From positions 64,001 through 128,000 of IMG/VR virus record IMGVR_UViG_3300045988_126550: a DNA stretch of 64,000 nt, one strand, 5' to 3'. Of this stretch, positions 9,888-13,076 are shown one piece after another; the stretch's first letter is position 1, and every line of letters starts with the position of its first letter. The translations under genes were made by a program, and so were the position numbers. The notes under the pieces are model-generated. The model did no database searches and was not told the origin of the DNA. It worked only from the letters and a program-made list of their open reading frames with translations. Source of the DNA: a virus.

Positions 9888-10011
9888 GCGATGATAGTCC
9901 AATGGTTAAGACGGCAGCTATTATTTTGAAGTGTCTAGCTAGACACGAACAGCAAGTTTGCAAAATTAATGCTCCAAGCTGCAATTGTAGGTTCGATTCC
10001 TACTCATCGCA
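9888..10011 (+). tRNA. interrupted tRNA gene, isotype undetermined (59 nt where the 7-nt anticodon loop should be)
   Basis: Acceptor GCGATGA/TCATCGC, D arm GTCC-AATGGTTAA-GAC, T arm GTAGG-TTCGATT-CCTAC, discriminator A, no CCA. Anticodon stem GCAGC (9914-9918) / GCTGC (9978-9982) encloses 9919-9977. Confidence 0.6.
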
Positions 10012-10019
10012 ATAATATG

Positions 10020-10136
10020 TCTCCTGTAGCTCAGTTGGATAGAGCACTTAATAACGAGACTTGCAAAAGCCTTAAACAGCAAATTTCTATTGGTCTGTTA
10101 AACCAGAGGTCACAGGTTCGAGCCCTGTCAGGAGAC
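10020..10136 (+). tRNA. tRNA-Asn(GUU) with a 43-nt insertion between position 26 and the anticodon stem
   Basis: Acceptor TCTCCTG/CAGGAGA, D arm GCTC-AGTTGGATA-GAGC, anticodon arm TTGGT-CTGTTAA-ACCAG (GTT at 10097-10099), T arm ACAGG-TTCGAGC-CCTGT. Insertion at 10047-10089. No encoded CCA. Confidence 0.7.
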
Positions 10137-10142
10137 TTTAAA

Positions 10143-10197
10143 AAGGCACTAGCAGCAACTTTAAACAATATGCTGGATATTATATTGATGGTGCCTT
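10143..10197 (+). repeat. hairpin unit 1 carrying an AGCAGCAA motif
   Basis: Stem AAGGCAC (10143-10149) / GTGCCTT (10191-10197). AAAGGCACTAgCAGCAAcTTT is nearly identical to unit 3. Confidence 0.6.
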
Positions 10198-10207
10198 GCC
10201 TTACATA

Positions 10208-10275
10208 GAGACGCTTACAGCAATTTAAAAAAGATGAAAATGATATTTTTACTAATGATTTTATTTTGGCGTCTC
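10208..10275 (+). repeat. hairpin unit 2 carrying an ACAGCAA motif
   Basis: Stem GAGACGC/GCGTCTC; ACAGCAA at 10217-10223, 2 nt after the 5' stem strand. Confidence 0.55.
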
Positions 10276-10285
10276 GTTGAATAAA

Positions 10286-10320
10286 CTCCAAAGGCACTAA
10301 CAGCAAATTTTCAATGTGGA
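10286..10320 (+). repeat. hairpin unit 3 carrying an ACAGCAA motif
   Basis: Stem CTCCA/TGGAG; AAAGGCACTAaCAGCAAaTTT with ACAGCAA at 10300-10306. Confidence 0.5.
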
Positions 10321-10378
10321 GAATACATAAGAATGTGTCTTGGGATTTAGAAATAAATCAAAAATGGAGGAAAGAAAA

Positions 10379-11926
10379 ATGTCTTTTATGAATGCAGTAA
10401 AGAATACTTTGAATGAGGAGTTTAATTACTCGGTAACTGAAAATGGCGCCCTTGGGTATCGTACTTCTGGCAAAGAACTGACTGACCTAAACTTTGCCGT
10501 TGCCTCTATGCGCGGTATGAACGAGAAGACCATCTATGATAAGTTCACGAAGGTTTATTTCGAAGACAAGATGATGGCTTTACGTTGGTTATTTTTCGCA
10601 AGAGATGTTCGTGGCGGTCTTGGCGAGAGACGTTTGTTCAGAACGGTTCTTAAAAATATGGCAAAGGACGACCCCAATACTGTTAAACGTCTTGCCTGTC
10701 TGGTGAGCGAGTATGGCCGTTATGATGACCTGTGGTGTCTGTTTGGAACGGATGTGGATGGTGTTGTTTTCGATATCATTAAGAAGCAGCTTTCTGATGA
10801 CATCGCAAATATGGCAGAGAATAAACCCGTATCTCTTCTTGCTAAGTGGCTCCCTTCCGTAAATGCTTCTTCTACAAGAACTAAGATGGACGCAAGATAT
10901 ATTTGCAAGAATCTTGGAATGACAGAGAGTAAGTATCGTAAGATTCTTTCTTCTCTGCGTTCTTACATTGACATTGTAGAAAGTAAGATGTCTGCAAAGA
11001 AGTGGGAAGAAATTAAGTACGAAACGGTTCCTTCTCGTGCAAATCTAATCTACAACAACGCTTTCCTCCGTAACGATGAGGAGCGTCGCAGAGAGTATCT
11101 GAGCAAGCTTGAAAAGGGTGAAACTAAAATCAATGCAGGAACTTTGTTCCCCCATGACATCGTTCACAAATATTGCAGTGGACGTATGTATAGCTATGGC
11201 GTTGGTAAGTACGATGCAACTATTGAATCTCTTTGGAAGGCTTTGCCCAATACAGTAAACGAGTGTGGGAACACTATTGTGGTTGCAGATGGCTCCGGTT
11301 CTATGTACTGCAATGTTGGCGGAAATACTTGTGTTACGGCACTTGAAGTTGCAAATGCACTTGCAATTTACTTTGCAGAGCATTCTTCTGGTGACTTTAA
11401 GGATAAATACATTACTTTCTCTAGCAGACCTCAGTTGGTTGATTTTAGTCAGTGCGATTCTCTAAGAGATAAGCTACGTGTTGCATATAGTCATTACGAG
11501 TGTTCAAATACAAACATTGAAAAGGTGTTTGATTTGATTCTTACTACTGCGGTGAATGGTCATATGAAGCAGGAGGATATGCCTAAGAATGTACTGATTA
11601 TTTCAGACATGGAGTTTGACTTTTGTGCAACTTGTGGTGGTTCCAATGGATGGAGTCTTAATAGACCTAGTGCAAGACTTTTTGATGTAATCAAGAAGCG
11701 TTTCGAGGATGCTGGGTATCAGATGCCTAGACTGGTCTTCTGGAATGTAAATTCTCGTACTGGCACTATTCCTGTAAAGGAGAACGACCTTGGTGTTGCT
11801 CTTGTTAGTGGTTTCTCCACTAATGTTTGCAAGATGGTCATGAGTGGTAAGACTGATCCTTACGAGTGCCTTGTTGAGACGCTTATGAGTGAGAGATATG
11901 ATGCAGTTGAGGCTGCGTTAAAGTAA
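10379..11926 (+). CDS. vWA-domain protein of the DUF2828 / TROVE-like (Ro60-related) type
   Basis: ATG 10379 after aaatggagg. N-terminal TENGALGYRTSGKELTDLNF is the signature I associate with DUF2828. MIDAS motif VVADGSGSM in the C-terminal half. ~515 aa, like Ro60/Rsr. Confidence 0.55.
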   Translation: MSFMNAVKNTLNEEFNYSVTENGALGYRTSGKELTDLNFAVASMRGMNEKTIYDKFTKVYFEDKMMALRWLFFARDVRGGLGERRLFRTVLKNMAKDDPNTVKRLACLVSEYGRYDDLWCLFGTDVDGVVFDIIKKQLSDDIANMAENKPVSLLAKWLPSVNASSTRTKMDARYICKNLGMTESKYRKILSSLRSYIDIVESKMSAKKWEEIKYETVPSRANLIYNNAFLRNDEERRREYLSKLEKGETKINAGTLFPHDIVHKYCSGRMYSYGVGKYDATIESLWKALPNTVNECGNTIVVADGSGSMYCNVGGNTCVTALEVANALAIYFAEHSSGDFKDKYITFSSRPQLVDFSQCDSLRDKLRVAYSHYECSNTNIEKVFDLILTTAVNGHMKQEDMPKNVLIISDMEFDFCATCGGSNGWSLNRPSARLFDVIKKRFEDAGYQMPRLVFWNVNSRTGTIPVKENDLGVALVSGFSTNVCKMVMSGKTDPYECLVETLMSERYDAVEAALK

Positions 11927-11932
11927 TGAAAA

Positions 11933-11993
11933 AAGACTCGAACAGCAACTATTAAAGGATTTGACTGCTAATCAAAATTACCTAAAGAGTCTT
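11933..11993 (+). repeat. hairpin unit 4 carrying an ACAGCAA motif
   Basis: Stem AAGACTC (11933-11939) / GAGTCTT (11987-11993); ACAGCAA at 11942-11948. Confidence 0.55.
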
Positions 11994-11994
11994 G

Positions 11995-12020
11995 TTTAAA
12001 GTGCTGGGCATCACTTTAAA
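11995..12020 (+). other. 9-bp hairpin (TTTAAAGTG/CACTTTAAA) with no U-tract; a processing or weak terminator structure
   Basis: Perfect 9-bp stem with an 8-nt loop, 15 nt upstream of tRNA-Leu. Confidence 0.4.
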
Positions 12021-12035
12021 GCTGCCCCGTGATAT

Positions 12036-12167
12036 GCGGGTATGGTGGAATCGGCAGACACAAGGGACTTGCTGATAGCCAGTGCTTTGGTAGGGGCAGC
12101 ACCTACAATCAGTACCAAAAATCCCTCGGAGAAATCCATGCGAGTTCAAATCTCGCTACCCGCACCA
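12036..12167 (+). tRNA. class II tRNA-Leu(UAA) with a 47-nt insertion in the anticodon (between U34 and A35); CCA encoded
   Basis: GCGGGTA-TG-GTGGAATCGGCAGACAC; anticodon stem AGGGA (12063-12067) / TCCCT (12122-12126); loop ends CTT...AAAA; variable arm CGGAGAAATCCAT; T arm GCGAG-TTCAAAT-CTCGC; TACCCGC-A-CCA. Confidence 0.75.
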
Positions 12168-12308
12168 TGACCTTGGCAAGTCATTAAACTACCACAGCTA
12201 TAAGCTGATAACCACATACTACGGACGAACTGCGTGTGGCTCCCAAGTGGATGAAGGTTTGATCGTCTGGCAGGTTGGCGCTCCTGTCGAAGTTAAAAGC
12301 GCGTTATA

Positions 12309-12377
12309 TCCTCTTTTAGTGTAAAGGTTGCACAGCTCCGCCGAGGAGTAGGAACGGTTCGATTCCGTGCAGAGGAG
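12309..12377 (+). ncRNA. tRNA-like element with a truncated anticodon arm
   Basis: T arm AACGG-TTCGATT-CCGTG. Acceptor-like TCCTCT/AGAGGA. D-like GTGT-AAAGGTT-GCAC. Stem GCTCC/GGAGT closes only a 5-nt loop. Flanked by GCGCT/AGCGC hairpins. The alternative 8-bp pairing GCGCTCCT (12278-12285) / AGGAGCGC (12373-12380) is mutually exclusive with the acceptor-like stem. Confidence 0.4.
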
Positions 12378-12556
12378 CGCTTGACACGGCGCTGGTGTTA
12401 TCTCTGGCATACGGATTACTAGTATGCAAAGCATTTACTTCGGTGGAAAATGCGGGGCAGAACAGAACCTTGGGTCTGTCACTTACACATCCATCCAAGT
12501 GTGGTTTGTGCTGAGGCCGGTGATGGGGCGGTCGTTTATAATACCCCATTCAATAT

Positions 12557-12633
12557 GCGCCACTATCCCAACAGGCAGAGGAAATGCACTCAAAATGCAT
12601 CAAGTCTCAGTTCGAATCTGAGATGGCGTACCA
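12557..12633 (+). tRNA. tRNA with anticodon CAA (Leu codon UUG) but a class I short variable loop; CCA encoded
   Basis: GCGCCAC-TA-TCCCAACAGGCAGAGGA-A-ATGCA-CTCAAAA-TGCAT-CAAGT-CTCAG-TTCGAAT-CTGAG-ATGGCGT-A-CCA. G1-U72 wobble and a C7-A66 mismatch. Confidence 0.65.
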
Positions 12634-13076
12634 AATGATAGTAAGTAGTGCAAATTTCATAAGTGATTACCGATGAGAATAAGCTCCCGACAGGATTTGC
12701 TAACTGTTGATATTAATTAGATGAGCTGAAGGTAATTGACGAAACACTATGAAATGGAGTCATGCACGGCTCCGCTTGCTATCATTACCACACCGTTTGA
12801 TGTGTGCCGACGGTATAAAAAATGGTAAACATCATTTCAAGGGTAGAGGATATGAAATGTGAATCCAGCCACTTGAATTGAGTCCTATAGCCCATGGTAC
12901 TAGTGGACTATGCGTGAATGGACACTACTTGAGATAGCATCAAAACAGCAATCCTAAAAAGTACCTGAAACGCTAGGCAATTATGAAATTATAGTTATTA
13001 AATCCTTCTTAAACCAAAGTTCACAGAATGGTCAACCAAGATAATTAAGGTTAAGTATTTAATAACTATAATATAT

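What the first reader, a model, noticed from the sequence alone, without database searches (positions are those of the whole stretch)
9949..12951. ACAGCAA motif concentrated in the tRNA/ncRNA island, inside and outside the tRNA insertions
Exact ACAGCAA occurs at 9949, 10076, 10217, 10300, 11942 and 12945, with a near copy AGCAGCAA at 10151. All are on the + strand, and each lies 1-3 nt after a G(A/G)C(A/N)C segment that is the 5' or 3' strand of a helix: GACAC-GA-, GCCTT-AA-, GACGC-TT-, GGCAC-TA-, GACTC-GA-, GCATC-AAA-.

Two copies lie within the tRNA insertions and the rest in free-standing hairpins. A given 7-mer is expected about 4 times per strand in 64 kb (64000 / 4^7). Reading by eye I found only one other + strand copy, at 34094 in nrdD. 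Six in ~3 kb of non-coding RNA therefore looks like a recognition element for an RNA-binding protein or endonuclease, or the signature of a small repeat or mobile element that invaded the tRNA genes.
Basis: seen in the sequence. Interest (0 to 1): 0.75.

Follow-up and report, generated by a model that had tools for sequence, protein, structure and literature searches.

The report
Phage Ro60-like protein's partner RNA motif
ACAGCAA is the invariant core of a small RNA module (a short helix followed by this 7-mer) that is attached to tRNA-like pieces and flanks the gene of a Ro60-like RNA-binding protein (DUF2828) in hundreds of phages, which points to an undescribed relative of the Ro60/Y-RNA particle.

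Summary
All six exact copies and the near copy are where stated, all on the + strand. The copy at 12945 does not belong to the family.

The true unit is longer: 5'-AAGRCNC-WW-ACAGCAA-WUUU...cargo...GNGYCUU-G, a covarying 7-9 bp helix with ACAGCAA just 3' of its 5' strand. The window has four free-standing units and two tRNA-shaped RNAs in which a capped version of the helix plus ACAGCAA interrupts the anticodon arm.

All surround one gene (10379-11926, Pfam DUF2828+DUF7788). Its AlphaFold model matches Ro60/TROVE structures over the full length.

In 80 loci chosen by protein alone, ACAGCAA occurs 414 times on the gene strand and 30 times on the other. 76 of 80 carry the module. It is also present in Felix O1, Listeria P100, and Enterococcus, Bacillus, Staphylococcus, Campylobacter, Vibrio and Mycobacterium phages.

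Cargo is often an anticodon stem-loop, a whole tRNA, or a YrlA-like permuted tRNA domain.

Best reading: a new Y-RNA-like family whose helix+ACAGCAA is the binding site of the Ro60-like protein. Binding itself is inferred, not shown.

The parts
9795..9822 (+). Consensus sigma-70 promoter (TTGACA, 16 nt, TGnTATAAT) that would drive the whole RNA island and the gene
   Evidence: 12 of 12 match with extended -10. No terminator-like site lies before the gene.
9888..10011 (+). tRNA-shaped RNA 1. Acceptor, D and T arms are intact. The anticodon loop is replaced by a 58-nt insert holding the module. The 3' junction ...UCCAA resembles the 3' part of a Gly anticodon loop, but no U33 is available.
   Evidence: Rfam tRNA 49.8 bits with a 58-nt insert; ARAGORN -i; fold; orthologues with the same layout.
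9931..9955 (+). Capped module in RNA 1: helix GUGUCU-AGCU-AGACAC (9931-9946), spacer GA, ACAGCAA (9949-9955)
   Evidence: Sequence; MFE and centroid both form the hairpin; same arrangement in about 60 distinct tRNA-shaped RNAs of related loci.
10020..10136 (+). tRNA-shaped RNA 2. It is a complete tRNA-Asn(GUU) body with intact anticodon arm UUGGU-CUGUUAA-ACCAG (10090-10106). A 44-nt branch is inserted between the D arm and the 5' strand of the anticodon stem.
   Evidence: Rfam tRNA 41.9 bits. With the insert removed, ARAGORN calls a canonical tRNA-Asn(gtt). The insert is almost invariant in 10 related genomes.
10056..10082 (+). Capped module in RNA 2: helix GAGACUU-GCAA-AAGCCUU (10056-10073; GNRA loop, GUAA in relatives), spacer AA, ACAGCAA (10076-10082)
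   Evidence: Sequence. The loop varies GCAA/GUAA while the helix and motif are invariant.
10143..10198 (+). Free-standing unit h1: AAGGCAC-UA-GCAGCAA...GUGCCUU-G. It carries the variant core GCAGCAA; relatives L003, L007 and L009 have ACAGCAA.
   Evidence: Covariance model R1 40.6 bits, E 8e-8; alignment.
10208..10276 (+). Free-standing unit h2: GAGACGC-UU-ACAGCAA...GCGUCUC-G
   Evidence: R1 46.5 bits; fold.
10291..10342 (+). Free-standing unit h3: AAGGCAC-UA-ACAGCAA...GUGUCUU-G. It ends 37 nt before the start codon, a position conserved across relatives.
   Evidence: R1 40.0 bits. A motif copy lies at -64 to -96 from the start codon in most related loci.
10379..11926 (+). Gene for the DUF2828+DUF7788 protein (515 aa). 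It is a predicted Ro60/TROVE-like helical ring plus a vWA domain with an invariant MIDAS motif DxSxS (D304, S306, S308).
   Evidence: Pfam; PHROG 850 'RNA-binding protein'; hhalign against Ro60, E 5e-5; AF2 pLDDT 80.9; Foldseek top six PDB hits are all Ro60/TROVE.
11933..11994 (+). Free-standing unit h4: AAGACUC-GA-ACAGCAA...GAGUCUU-G. Its cargo holds an anticodon-type hairpin UUUGA-CUGCUAA-UCAAA (11960-11976, GCU).
   Evidence: R1 49.6 bits; anticodon-hairpin detection; a motif copy 30-100 nt after the stop codon recurs in relatives.

Best explanation
ACAGCAA is the single-stranded, sequence-invariant core of a bipartite RNA module. The module is a 7-9 bp helix (5' strand AAGRCNC, 3' strand GNGYCUU followed by G) with ACAGCAA 0-2 nt after the 5' strand.

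The module is the handle of a family of small phage RNAs built like Y RNAs. In Y RNAs a protein-binding stem carries a tRNA-like effector part. Here that part is an anticodon stem-loop, a whole tRNA, a circularly permuted tRNA-like domain as in YrlA, or a tRNA body with the capped module branching from the anticodon arm.

The RNAs are co-transcribed with a Ro60-fold protein (DUF2828/DUF7788) and, I infer, are bound by it. I expect the helix and ACAGCAA to be read by the protein ring. The tRNA-like part would then engage tRNA-directed host or phage factors such as anticodon nucleases, exoribonucleases or the phage's own Pnk/Rnl1 repair enzymes.

Shown: the motif, the helix, the cargo types, the strand- and position-specific linkage to the gene across distant phages, and the Ro60-like predicted fold.

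Inferred: physical binding, and what the particle does.
For: (1) Motif and register. 117 distinct sites aligned on ACAGCAA give A(-8) 92%, G(-7) 89%, C(-5) 87%, C(-3) 70%, then W W, and U-rich sequence after the motif.

(2) Helix. 178 of 223 GRCN4ACAGCAA sites have a perfect 7-nt partner 18-140 nt downstream, against 4% after shuffling. 32 different stem sequences occur. Covariation score is 0.395 against 0.141, with 0 of 500 shuffles reaching it.

(3) ACAGCAA itself never varies, and no complement to it is enriched in the cargo. That is expected for a protein-read single strand.

(4) Linkage found from the RNA side. 34 of 120 loci fetched by an RNA pattern alone contain a DUF2828 homologue at 25-73% identity. 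Copies cluster within about 500 nt of both gene ends on the gene strand.

(5) Linkage found from the protein side. In 80 loci chosen by protein only, all 186 covariance-model hits lie on the gene strand. ACAGCAA occurs 414 against 30 times, strict modules 207 against 3, and 76 against 3 of 80 loci carry one.

(6) Breadth. The same motif flanks the gene in Felix O1, Listeria P100, Enterococcus iF6, Bacillus MrDarsey, Staphylococcus 6ec, Campylobacter CJLB-10, Vibrio PC-Liy1 and the 60% GC Mycobacterium phage Jobypre.

(7) Protein. The AF2 model (pLDDT 80.9) matches Ro60/TROVE structures over about 510-560 aligned columns: 9kop E 2e-9, phiLo Ro60, Xenopus Ro, Rsr and human Ro60.

(8) Cargo. Canonical anticodon hairpins occur in 44 of 169 short units against 4.2 expected. 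About 24 of 42 long units are permuted tRNA-like domains, and these give full-length sub-threshold YrlA matches.

(9) Precedent. YrlA Y RNAs are encoded next to Ro60 genes and carry a short 5' motif thought to bind Rsr (PMC4201824). A phage Ro60 binds phage Y-like RNAs and host PNPase (PMC12135203).
Against: - There are no binding, expression or RNA-end data.
- The protein does not hit Pfam TROVE. Only its vWA half aligns with Ro60 at the sequence level, so the ring similarity rests on a predicted structure.
- The motif differs from the known Ro60 sites (GGUCCGA, GNCGAAN0-1G).
- The copy number per genome (3-11) is higher than for known Y RNAs.
- The copy about 80 nt upstream of the start codon could be a cis-regulatory or processing element instead.
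- Loci L016-L135 and the model R1 were defined with the motif itself. Only the protein-first tests are free of that circularity.
Confidence: 0.65

Rival explanations
1. The module is a splice or ligation signal, a protein-dependent tRNA intron or split-tRNA junction. The helix plus ACAGCAA marks sequence to be cut out of tRNA-shaped precursors. The ends are then healed and sealed by the phage polynucleotide kinase and Rnl1-type ligase, giving functional tRNAs. Permuted units would mature through a circular or two-piece intermediate.
For: RNA 2 minus its insert is a perfect tRNA-Asn(GUU). About 60 tRNA bodies carry the capped module. Permuted units keep N-CCA in the loop that closes the acceptor stem. 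The window encodes Rnl1-like ligase, Pnk, a nucleotidyltransferase and a Thg1-like enzyme.
Against: Most units are free-standing hairpins with only an anticodon hairpin, or no tRNA feature at all, so there is nothing to splice. The distance from ACAGCAA to the tRNA part varies from 1 to more than 30 nt, and the insertion site varies between within the anticodon stem and the loop. RNA 1 would lack U33 whatever the junction. No endonuclease candidate is linked to the motif. The reading also does not explain the link to a Ro60-fold protein.
Confidence: 0.12
2. The module is a cis-acting processing, stability or translational control element of the polycistronic tRNA/mRNA transcript. It could be an RNase entry or blocking site, or an autoregulatory leader of the DUF2828 mRNA. 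It would not be a trans-acting RNP RNA.
For: All units are co-transcribed from one strong promoter with no terminators. One unit nearly always sits 64-96 nt before the start codon and one just after the stop. In Vibrio phage PC-Liy1 the 3' strand of the single unit overlaps the start codon.
Against: Many units lie among tRNA genes 1 kb or more from the gene. The cargo is enriched for anticodon hairpins and tRNA-like domains, which a processing signal does not need. The helix is too short for RNase III (established knowledge). This reading can also coexist with protein binding.
Confidence: 0.12
3. The units are copies of a small repeat or mobile element (MITE/REP-like) that spreads in tRNA regions and inserts into tRNA genes.
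For: The units are multi-copy, and copy number differs between near-identical phages. L015 shows a deletion between two copies. Some lie inside tRNA genes at different positions.
Against: All 186 model hits and 207 of 210 strict modules lie on the gene's strand. Stems covary instead of sharing one terminal repeat. No transposase is linked. The association with one protein family persists from 25% to 93% identity and across phyla of hosts.
Confidence: 0.04

Closest known systems
Bacterial and phage Y RNAs of the YrlA type with Ro60/Rsr (Rfam RF02553; Chen et al. 2014, PMC4201824)
   Same: Small RNAs are encoded next to the gene of a Ro60-fold protein. The 5' and 3' ends form a stem, with a short conserved motif on the 5' side. 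Many relatives carry a tRNA-like domain in permuted order: V hairpin, T arm, closed acceptor stem, D arm. These permuted units give full-length YrlA alignments.
   Different: The conserved motif is AAGRCNC-WW-ACAGCAA, not GNCGAAN0-1G. Scores are 26-39 bits against a gathering score of 69. The protein is DUF2828/DUF7788, not Pfam TROVE. Cargo is far more varied: anticodon hairpin only, whole tRNAs, or non-permuted tRNA bodies with the module as a branch. There are 3-11 copies per genome.
Thermus phage phiLo Ro60 with Yrl1/Yrl2 (PMC12135203; PDB 9l5y)
   Same: A phage-encoded Ro60-fold protein has phage-encoded partner RNAs. It is the second-best structural match to the model of the window protein.
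   Different: phiLo Ro60 is a canonical TROVE protein, and its RNAs were identified as Y-like. No ACAGCAA module was reported there. I did not examine its RNA sequences.
Circularly permuted and split tRNA genes (Cyanidioschyzon merolae, Nanoarchaeum equitans; from established knowledge)
   Same: The 3' half lies before the 5' half, with N-CCA and a linker closing the acceptor stem. A leader-trailer helix lies at the junction near the anticodon arm.
   Different: Those systems use a bulge-helix-bulge motif cut by the archaeal/eukaryal splicing endonuclease. No such enzyme or motif is evident here, and many units have no tRNA body at all.
T4-type tRNA repair against anticodon nucleases (Pnk + Rnl1 versus PrrC; from established knowledge, and discussed in PMC13148394)
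   Same: The window encodes Rnl1-like ligase and Pnk a few kb downstream. The anticodon-hairpin cargo is enriched for the Lys-UUU loop, the classical PrrC target: 12 of 44 against 30 of 734 ordinary tRNAs.
   Different: This is a functional context only. No known repair or evasion system uses a Ro-like RNP that displays anticodon loops.

Membership tests
Y RNA / YrlA (RF02553) | Encoded adjacent to a Ro60-type protein gene | tested here: met
   The units flank a gene whose product is predicted to have the Ro60/TROVE fold. The linkage holds in 76 of 80 protein-selected loci.
Y RNA / YrlA (RF02553) | Conserved Ro60/Rsr-binding motif GNCGAAN0-1G (or GGUCCGA) near the 5' end | tested here: not met
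   The conserved 5' sequence is AAGRCNC-WW-ACAGCAA. The motif definition is from PMC4201824.
Y RNA / YrlA (RF02553) | tRNA-like domain with T arm, closed acceptor-like stem and D arm in permuted order | tested here: inconclusive
   The feature is met in about 24 long units of related loci and in Enterococcus iF6 and Mycobacterium Jobypre. In the window itself the four hairpins have at most an anticodon hairpin, and the two tRNA-shaped RNAs are not permuted.
Y RNA / YrlA (RF02553) | Score at or above the Rfam gathering threshold (69 bits) | tested here: not met
   Window: 23.6 bits, across two adjacent tRNAs. Related permuted units: 25.7-39.1 bits. None reaches threshold in 17 loci.
Y RNA / YrlA (RF02553) | Physical association with the Ro60-type protein | not testable with these tools
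   This needs RIP/CLIP or a gel shift.
Ro60 / TROVE proteins (partner protein) | Ring of alpha-helical repeats closed by a vWA domain with a MIDAS motif | tested here: met
   AF2 model pLDDT 80.9, pTM 0.77. Foldseek full-length matches to 9kop, 9l5y, 1yvr, 2nvo and 9nen, E 2e-9 to 3e-6. DxSxS is invariant. This rests on a predicted structure only.
Ro60 / TROVE proteins (partner protein) | Sequence match to Pfam TROVE (PF05731) | tested here: not met
   Only DUF2828 and DUF7788 pass. VWA_2 and vWA_Ro60 are weak. hhalign is significant only over the vWA half.
tRNA introns (bacterial group I; archaeal/eukaryal BHB type) | Group I catalytic core, or an insert at position 37/38 flanked by a bulge-helix-bulge | tested here: not met
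   The inserts are 44-58 nt with no ribozyme or intron family hit at E<=5. The positions are within the anticodon stem or replace the loop. A formal BHB search was not run.
Small self-cleaving ribozymes associated with phage tRNAs (HDV-like/theta, hammerhead, twister, hatchet, pistol) | Match to the family covariance model | tested here: not met
   No such Rfam hit in 9300-15000 at E<=5.
MITE/REP-type mobile repeats | Constant terminal inverted repeats, both orientations, target-site duplication | tested here: not met
   One orientation only. Stems covary, with 32 different 7-mers. Target-site duplications were not examined systematically.

The most novel reading that the evidence does not exclude
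DUF2828/DUF7788 proteins and ACAGCAA RNAs form a widespread, undescribed phage ribonucleoprotein. It displays anticodon stem-loops or whole tRNA-like bodies on a Ro60-like ring. It would act as decoys or traps for host tRNA-cleaving defence nucleases, or as a platform that hands damaged tRNAs to the phage Pnk/Rnl1 repair enzymes. That would make it an RNA-based anti-defence device. The enrichment of Lys-UUU loops and the neighbouring repair genes fit this, but nothing tests it.
Probability: 0.25. Interest if true: 0.9.

Novelty: new variant of a known kind. Interest (0 to 1): 0.78.

Why it matters
- It gives a domain of unknown function a concrete, testable RNA partner. DUF2828/DUF7788 has at least 8000 clusters in the protein collection and occurs in 710 GenBank phage records, including Felix O1, Listeria P100 and many mycobacteriophages.
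- It extends the Ro60/Y-RNA paradigm to a second, much more phage-typical protein family.
- It explains unannotated 'gaps' next to phage tRNA arrays, and some 'tRNA genes with odd insertions' that tRNA finders miss or mis-call.
- Because the module is present in cultured, genetically tractable phages, binding and function can be tested directly.
- If the tRNA-like cargo targets host anticodon nucleases or RNA decay, this would be a new class of RNA-based counter-defence.

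Tried and rejected
- **Chance.** Rejected by shuffles and by the extended motif.
- **Known RNA family.** Rfam at gathering score and at E<=5 found only tRNAs and a weak YrlA match spanning two tRNAs.
- **Close GenBank relative of the island.** None was found at the DNA level.
- **Internal pseudoknot pairing ACAGCAA with the cargo.** Complementary k-mers are not enriched.
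- **Thermodynamic support for the hairpins.** z-scores are weak because the loops are AU-rich, so I relied on covariation instead.
- **First AF2 model (23 close sequences).** It was poor (pLDDT 60) and matched only generic vWA domains. A second alignment with a distant clade was needed.
- **PDB sequence searches with the protein or its profile.** They found nothing.
- **Small ORFs in the hairpin loops.** Considered, but they are not conserved between units (read).
- **The 12945 copy and the tRNA-Leu insert (12036-12164).** Neither carries the module.
- **Literature.** Searches for DUF2828, PF11443, ACAGCAA, permuted tRNA in phages and Ro-like phage proteins found no description of the RNA.
- **Genome-contig scan with the alignment.** It failed. 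The single-protein scan found two Lachnospiraceae MAG contigs, both with modules.

Full report
**1. The observation**

ACAGCAA occurs exactly at 9949, 10076, 10217, 10300, 11942 and 12945 on the + strand. GCAGCAA lies at 10152.

The window has 20 copies, 10 per strand, against 10.6 expected from dinucleotide shuffles. Further + copies lie at 21936, 26181, 34094 and 39926.

The local cluster is nevertheless far beyond chance. There are six + copies in 3 kb against about 0.25 expected.

The longer pattern GRCNNNNRCAGCAA hits five times, all on the + strand between 9942 and 11948. Only 0.33 hits are expected, and none of 100 shuffles reaches five.

**2. Anatomy in the window**

A perfect sigma-70 promoter (9795-9822) precedes the island, and no terminator-like site follows it. 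The features then run in this order:
- a tRNA-shaped RNA (9888-10011);
- a second tRNA-shaped RNA (10020-10136);
- three hairpins (10143-10198, 10208-10276, 10291-10342);
- an ORF (10379-11926);
- a fourth hairpin (11933-11994).

In each hairpin a 7-bp stem (AAGGCAC/GUGCCUU, GAGACGC/GCGUCUC, AAGGCAC/GUGUCUU, AAGACUC/GAGUCUU) encloses a 37-46 nt AU-rich segment after the motif. ACAGCAA sits two nucleotides after the 5' strand.

In the two tRNA-shaped RNAs the same helix is closed by a tetraloop (GUGUCU-AGCU-AGACAC; GAGACUU-GCAA-AAGCCUU). It is followed by two nucleotides and ACAGCAA, and the whole forms a branch in the anticodon arm.

RNA 2 without the branch is a canonical tRNA-Asn(GUU). RNA 1 has its anticodon loop replaced, and no junction gives a U33.

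The copy at 12945 has no partner strand, does not fit the upstream consensus and is not detected by the model. It is not part of the family.

**3. The unit across other genomes**

Fifteen IMG/VR relatives of the ORF keep the motif upstream of the gene. The most distant of them (L012, 61% protein identity) has eleven + copies and no - copy.

A pattern scan for AAGAC..ACAGCAA..GTCTTG returned at least 120 viral loci.

I aligned 117 distinct sites on ACAGCAA. The upstream register is fixed: A(-8) 92%, G(-7) 89%, R(-6), C(-5) 87%, C(-3) 70%, then W W. U-rich sequence follows the motif. The 3' strand reads GNGYCUU followed by G.

178 of 223 GRCN4ACAGCAA sites have a perfectly complementary 7-mer 18-140 nt downstream, against 4% after shuffling. 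These use 32 different stem sequences.

On an 86-sequence alignment the helix pairs covary: score 0.395 against 0.141, with 0 of 500 shuffles reaching it. The sequences were chosen for pairing, so the percentage paired is by construction.

ACAGCAA itself is invariant, and no complement to it is enriched in the cargo. This argues for a single strand read by a trans-acting factor.

A covariance model of the unit finds only the four hairpins in the 64-kb window, at 40-50 bits. The next best hit scores 14.7 bits.

**4. The cargo**
- **Short units.** 44 of 169 contain a canonical anticodon hairpin (5 bp plus YU-NNN-R-N), against 4.2 expected. UUU (Lys) is the commonest anticodon: 12 of 44, against 30 of 734 among ordinary tRNAs of the same loci.
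- **Long units, whole tRNAs.** Eight of 42 hold a complete tRNA.
- **Long units, permuted domains.** About 24 of 42 hold a permuted tRNA-like domain. The order is hairpin, T arm, acceptor stem closed by N-CCA plus a linker, then D arm. This is the YrlA architecture, and such units give full-length but sub-threshold Rfam YrlA matches of 26-39 bits against a gathering score of 69.
- **Third layout.** About 60 distinct RNAs are ordinary tRNA bodies with the capped module in the anticodon arm, like the two in the window.

The three layouts are circular permutations of one topology: the module attached at the anticodon-arm side of a tRNA-like body.

**5. The linked gene**

The ORF is DUF2828+DUF7788 and belongs to PHROG 850, 'RNA-binding protein'.

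Sequence searches against the PDB found nothing. A profile-profile comparison with Ro60 (human, Xenopus, Deinococcus Rsr) aligns the vWA halves at E 5e-5.

A first AlphaFold model was poor. A second, made with a distant clade in the alignment, reached pLDDT 80.9 and pTM 0.77.

The six best PDB matches of the second model are all Ro60/TROVE proteins over the full length: 9kop, Thermus phage phiLo Ro60, Xenopus Ro, Rsr and human Ro60, with E from 2e-9 to 3e-6. In BFVD it matches DUF2828/DUF7788 proteins first, then phage TROVE and 'Ro-like' proteins.

GenBank annotators already call members 'RNA-binding protein' or 'Ro-like RNA binding protein'. I found no paper that describes an RNA partner.

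**6. The linkage**

*From the RNA side.* 34 of 120 pattern-selected loci contain a DUF2828 homologue at 25-73% identity. Motif copies lie on the gene strand within about 500 nt of both ends. One typically lies 64-96 nt before the start codon and one 30-100 nt after the stop.

*From the protein side.* This test is free of circularity. In 80 loci selected by protein alone:
- all 186 model hits at E<=0.01 are on the gene strand;
- ACAGCAA occurs 414 times on the gene strand against 30 on the other;
- strict modules number 207 against 3;
- 76 of 80 loci carry a module on the gene strand, against 3 of 80 on the other.

*In cultured phages.* The motif flanks the gene, on the same strand only, in Felix O1 (4 copies, interspersed with tRNAs), Listeria P100 (3), Enterococcus iF6 (3), Bacillus MrDarsey (5), Staphylococcus 6ec (3), Campylobacter CJLB-10 (2), Vibrio PC-Liy1 (1) and the 60% GC Mycobacterium phage Jobypre (3).

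The helix sequence drifts between lineages (AGACC/GGUCU, AGGAAUC/GAUUCCU, GGAC/GUCC) while ACAGCAA stays fixed.

Two Lachnospiraceae MAG contigs also carry the gene and modules. This suggests the host group of the window's phage.

**7. Interpretation**

The pattern reproduces the defining logic of Ro60/Y RNA. A small RNA with a terminal stem and a short conserved motif on its 5' side, often with a tRNA-like domain, is encoded beside the gene of a Ro60-fold protein (PMC4201824; PMC12135203).

I therefore read helix+ACAGCAA as the binding site of the DUF2828 protein and the cargo as the effector end. Binding is inferred.

The window also encodes an Rnl1-like RNA ligase, a polynucleotide kinase, a nucleotidyltransferase and a Thg1-like enzyme. 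Mycobacteriophage LeBron has the same trio of Ro-like protein, Pnk and RNA ligase (PMC13148394). The particle therefore probably acts in tRNA surveillance, repair or counter-defence.

A decoy role for the anticodon loops is attractive but untested.

**8. Rivals**
- A splice or ligation signal in tRNAs is not excluded for the tRNA-shaped members. It cannot explain the free-standing units or the protein linkage.
- A cis-acting processing or autoregulatory element may apply to the copy just upstream of the start codon. It could coexist with the RNP reading.
- A mobile repeat is contradicted by strand exclusivity and by stems that covary rather than repeat.

**9. Comparison with known families and verdict**

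The RNAs work like Y RNAs but fail two membership tests for YrlA: the motif and the Rfam score. The protein has the Ro60 fold by prediction but not the Pfam TROVE signature.

I file this as a new variant of a known kind. It is a second, phage-centred branch of the Ro60/Y-RNA system with its own RNA signature. It is widespread and can be tested in model phages.

Noticed in passing
window 12036-12164: tRNA-Leu(UAA) with a 47-nt insert placed between nt 34 and 35 of the anticodon. From memory, this is the position of the cyanobacterial group I intron, but the insert is far too short for one. It has no ACAGCAA module and contains a hairpin GGUAGG-GGCAGCA-CCUAC.
   Followed up: partly
window 13077-13172: tRNA-Ile(UAU) with a 22-nt extra arm in the variable region, which is unusual for an Ile tRNA.
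   Followed up: no
window 12170-12556, 12634-13076, 13380-13735, 13812-14213: Long non-coding stretches between tRNA genes with no Rfam match and no long ORF. 12300-12390 looks like a tRNA-like element with a T arm. They are possibly further unknown structured RNAs.
   Followed up: no
window 19908-21023, 21288-22097, 22718-23623, 25651-26484: An RNA-repair/tRNA toolkit: Rnl1-like RNA ligase, nucleotidyltransferase, polynucleotide kinase and Thg1-like tRNA-His guanylyltransferase. Mycobacteriophage LeBron has the same Ro-like + Pnk + ligase combination (PMC13148394).
   Followed up: partly
L015 3910-3967: In one close relative, hairpins h2 and h3 are fused into one hybrid hairpin by a deletion running exactly between their two ACAGCAA copies. 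The hybrid stem still pairs, with one G.U. This indicates recombination between units.
   Followed up: partly
L126, L056, L072, L130 (coordinates): ROOL RNAs (312-352 bits) lie in the same tRNA-rich regions of related phages. Partial OLE matches at 53 bits in L130 and L056 barely reach that family's gathering score (50) and may well be false positives.
   Followed up: no
related loci L001-L215: ARAGORN labels 18 distinct tRNAs with anticodon CUA as 'Pyl'. These are probably amber suppressors, hinting at stop-codon recoding in some of these phages.
   Followed up: no
L225 about 2455-2510 (Vibrio phage PC-Liy1): This phage has a single module, whose 3' strand (AUGUC) overlaps the start codon of the Ro-like gene. 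That is a possible translational autoregulation site.
   Followed up: no
window 11965-11971; L222 about 4220; L223 about 2365: The same anticodon-type loop CUGCUAA (GCU) recurs in the unit next to the gene in the window, in Mycobacterium phage Jobypre and in Campylobacter phage CJLB-10, despite very distant hosts.
   Followed up: no
window 9370-9397 and 9795-9822: Two near-identical perfect promoters (CTTGACAAATAAAAAAT...TGnTATAAT). The first precedes a 112-aa ORF with no family match (9449-9787).
   Followed up: no
L045 2327-2377: Sub-threshold match to the type-P1 twister ribozyme: 41 bits against a gathering score of 67, E 1e-5.
   Followed up: no
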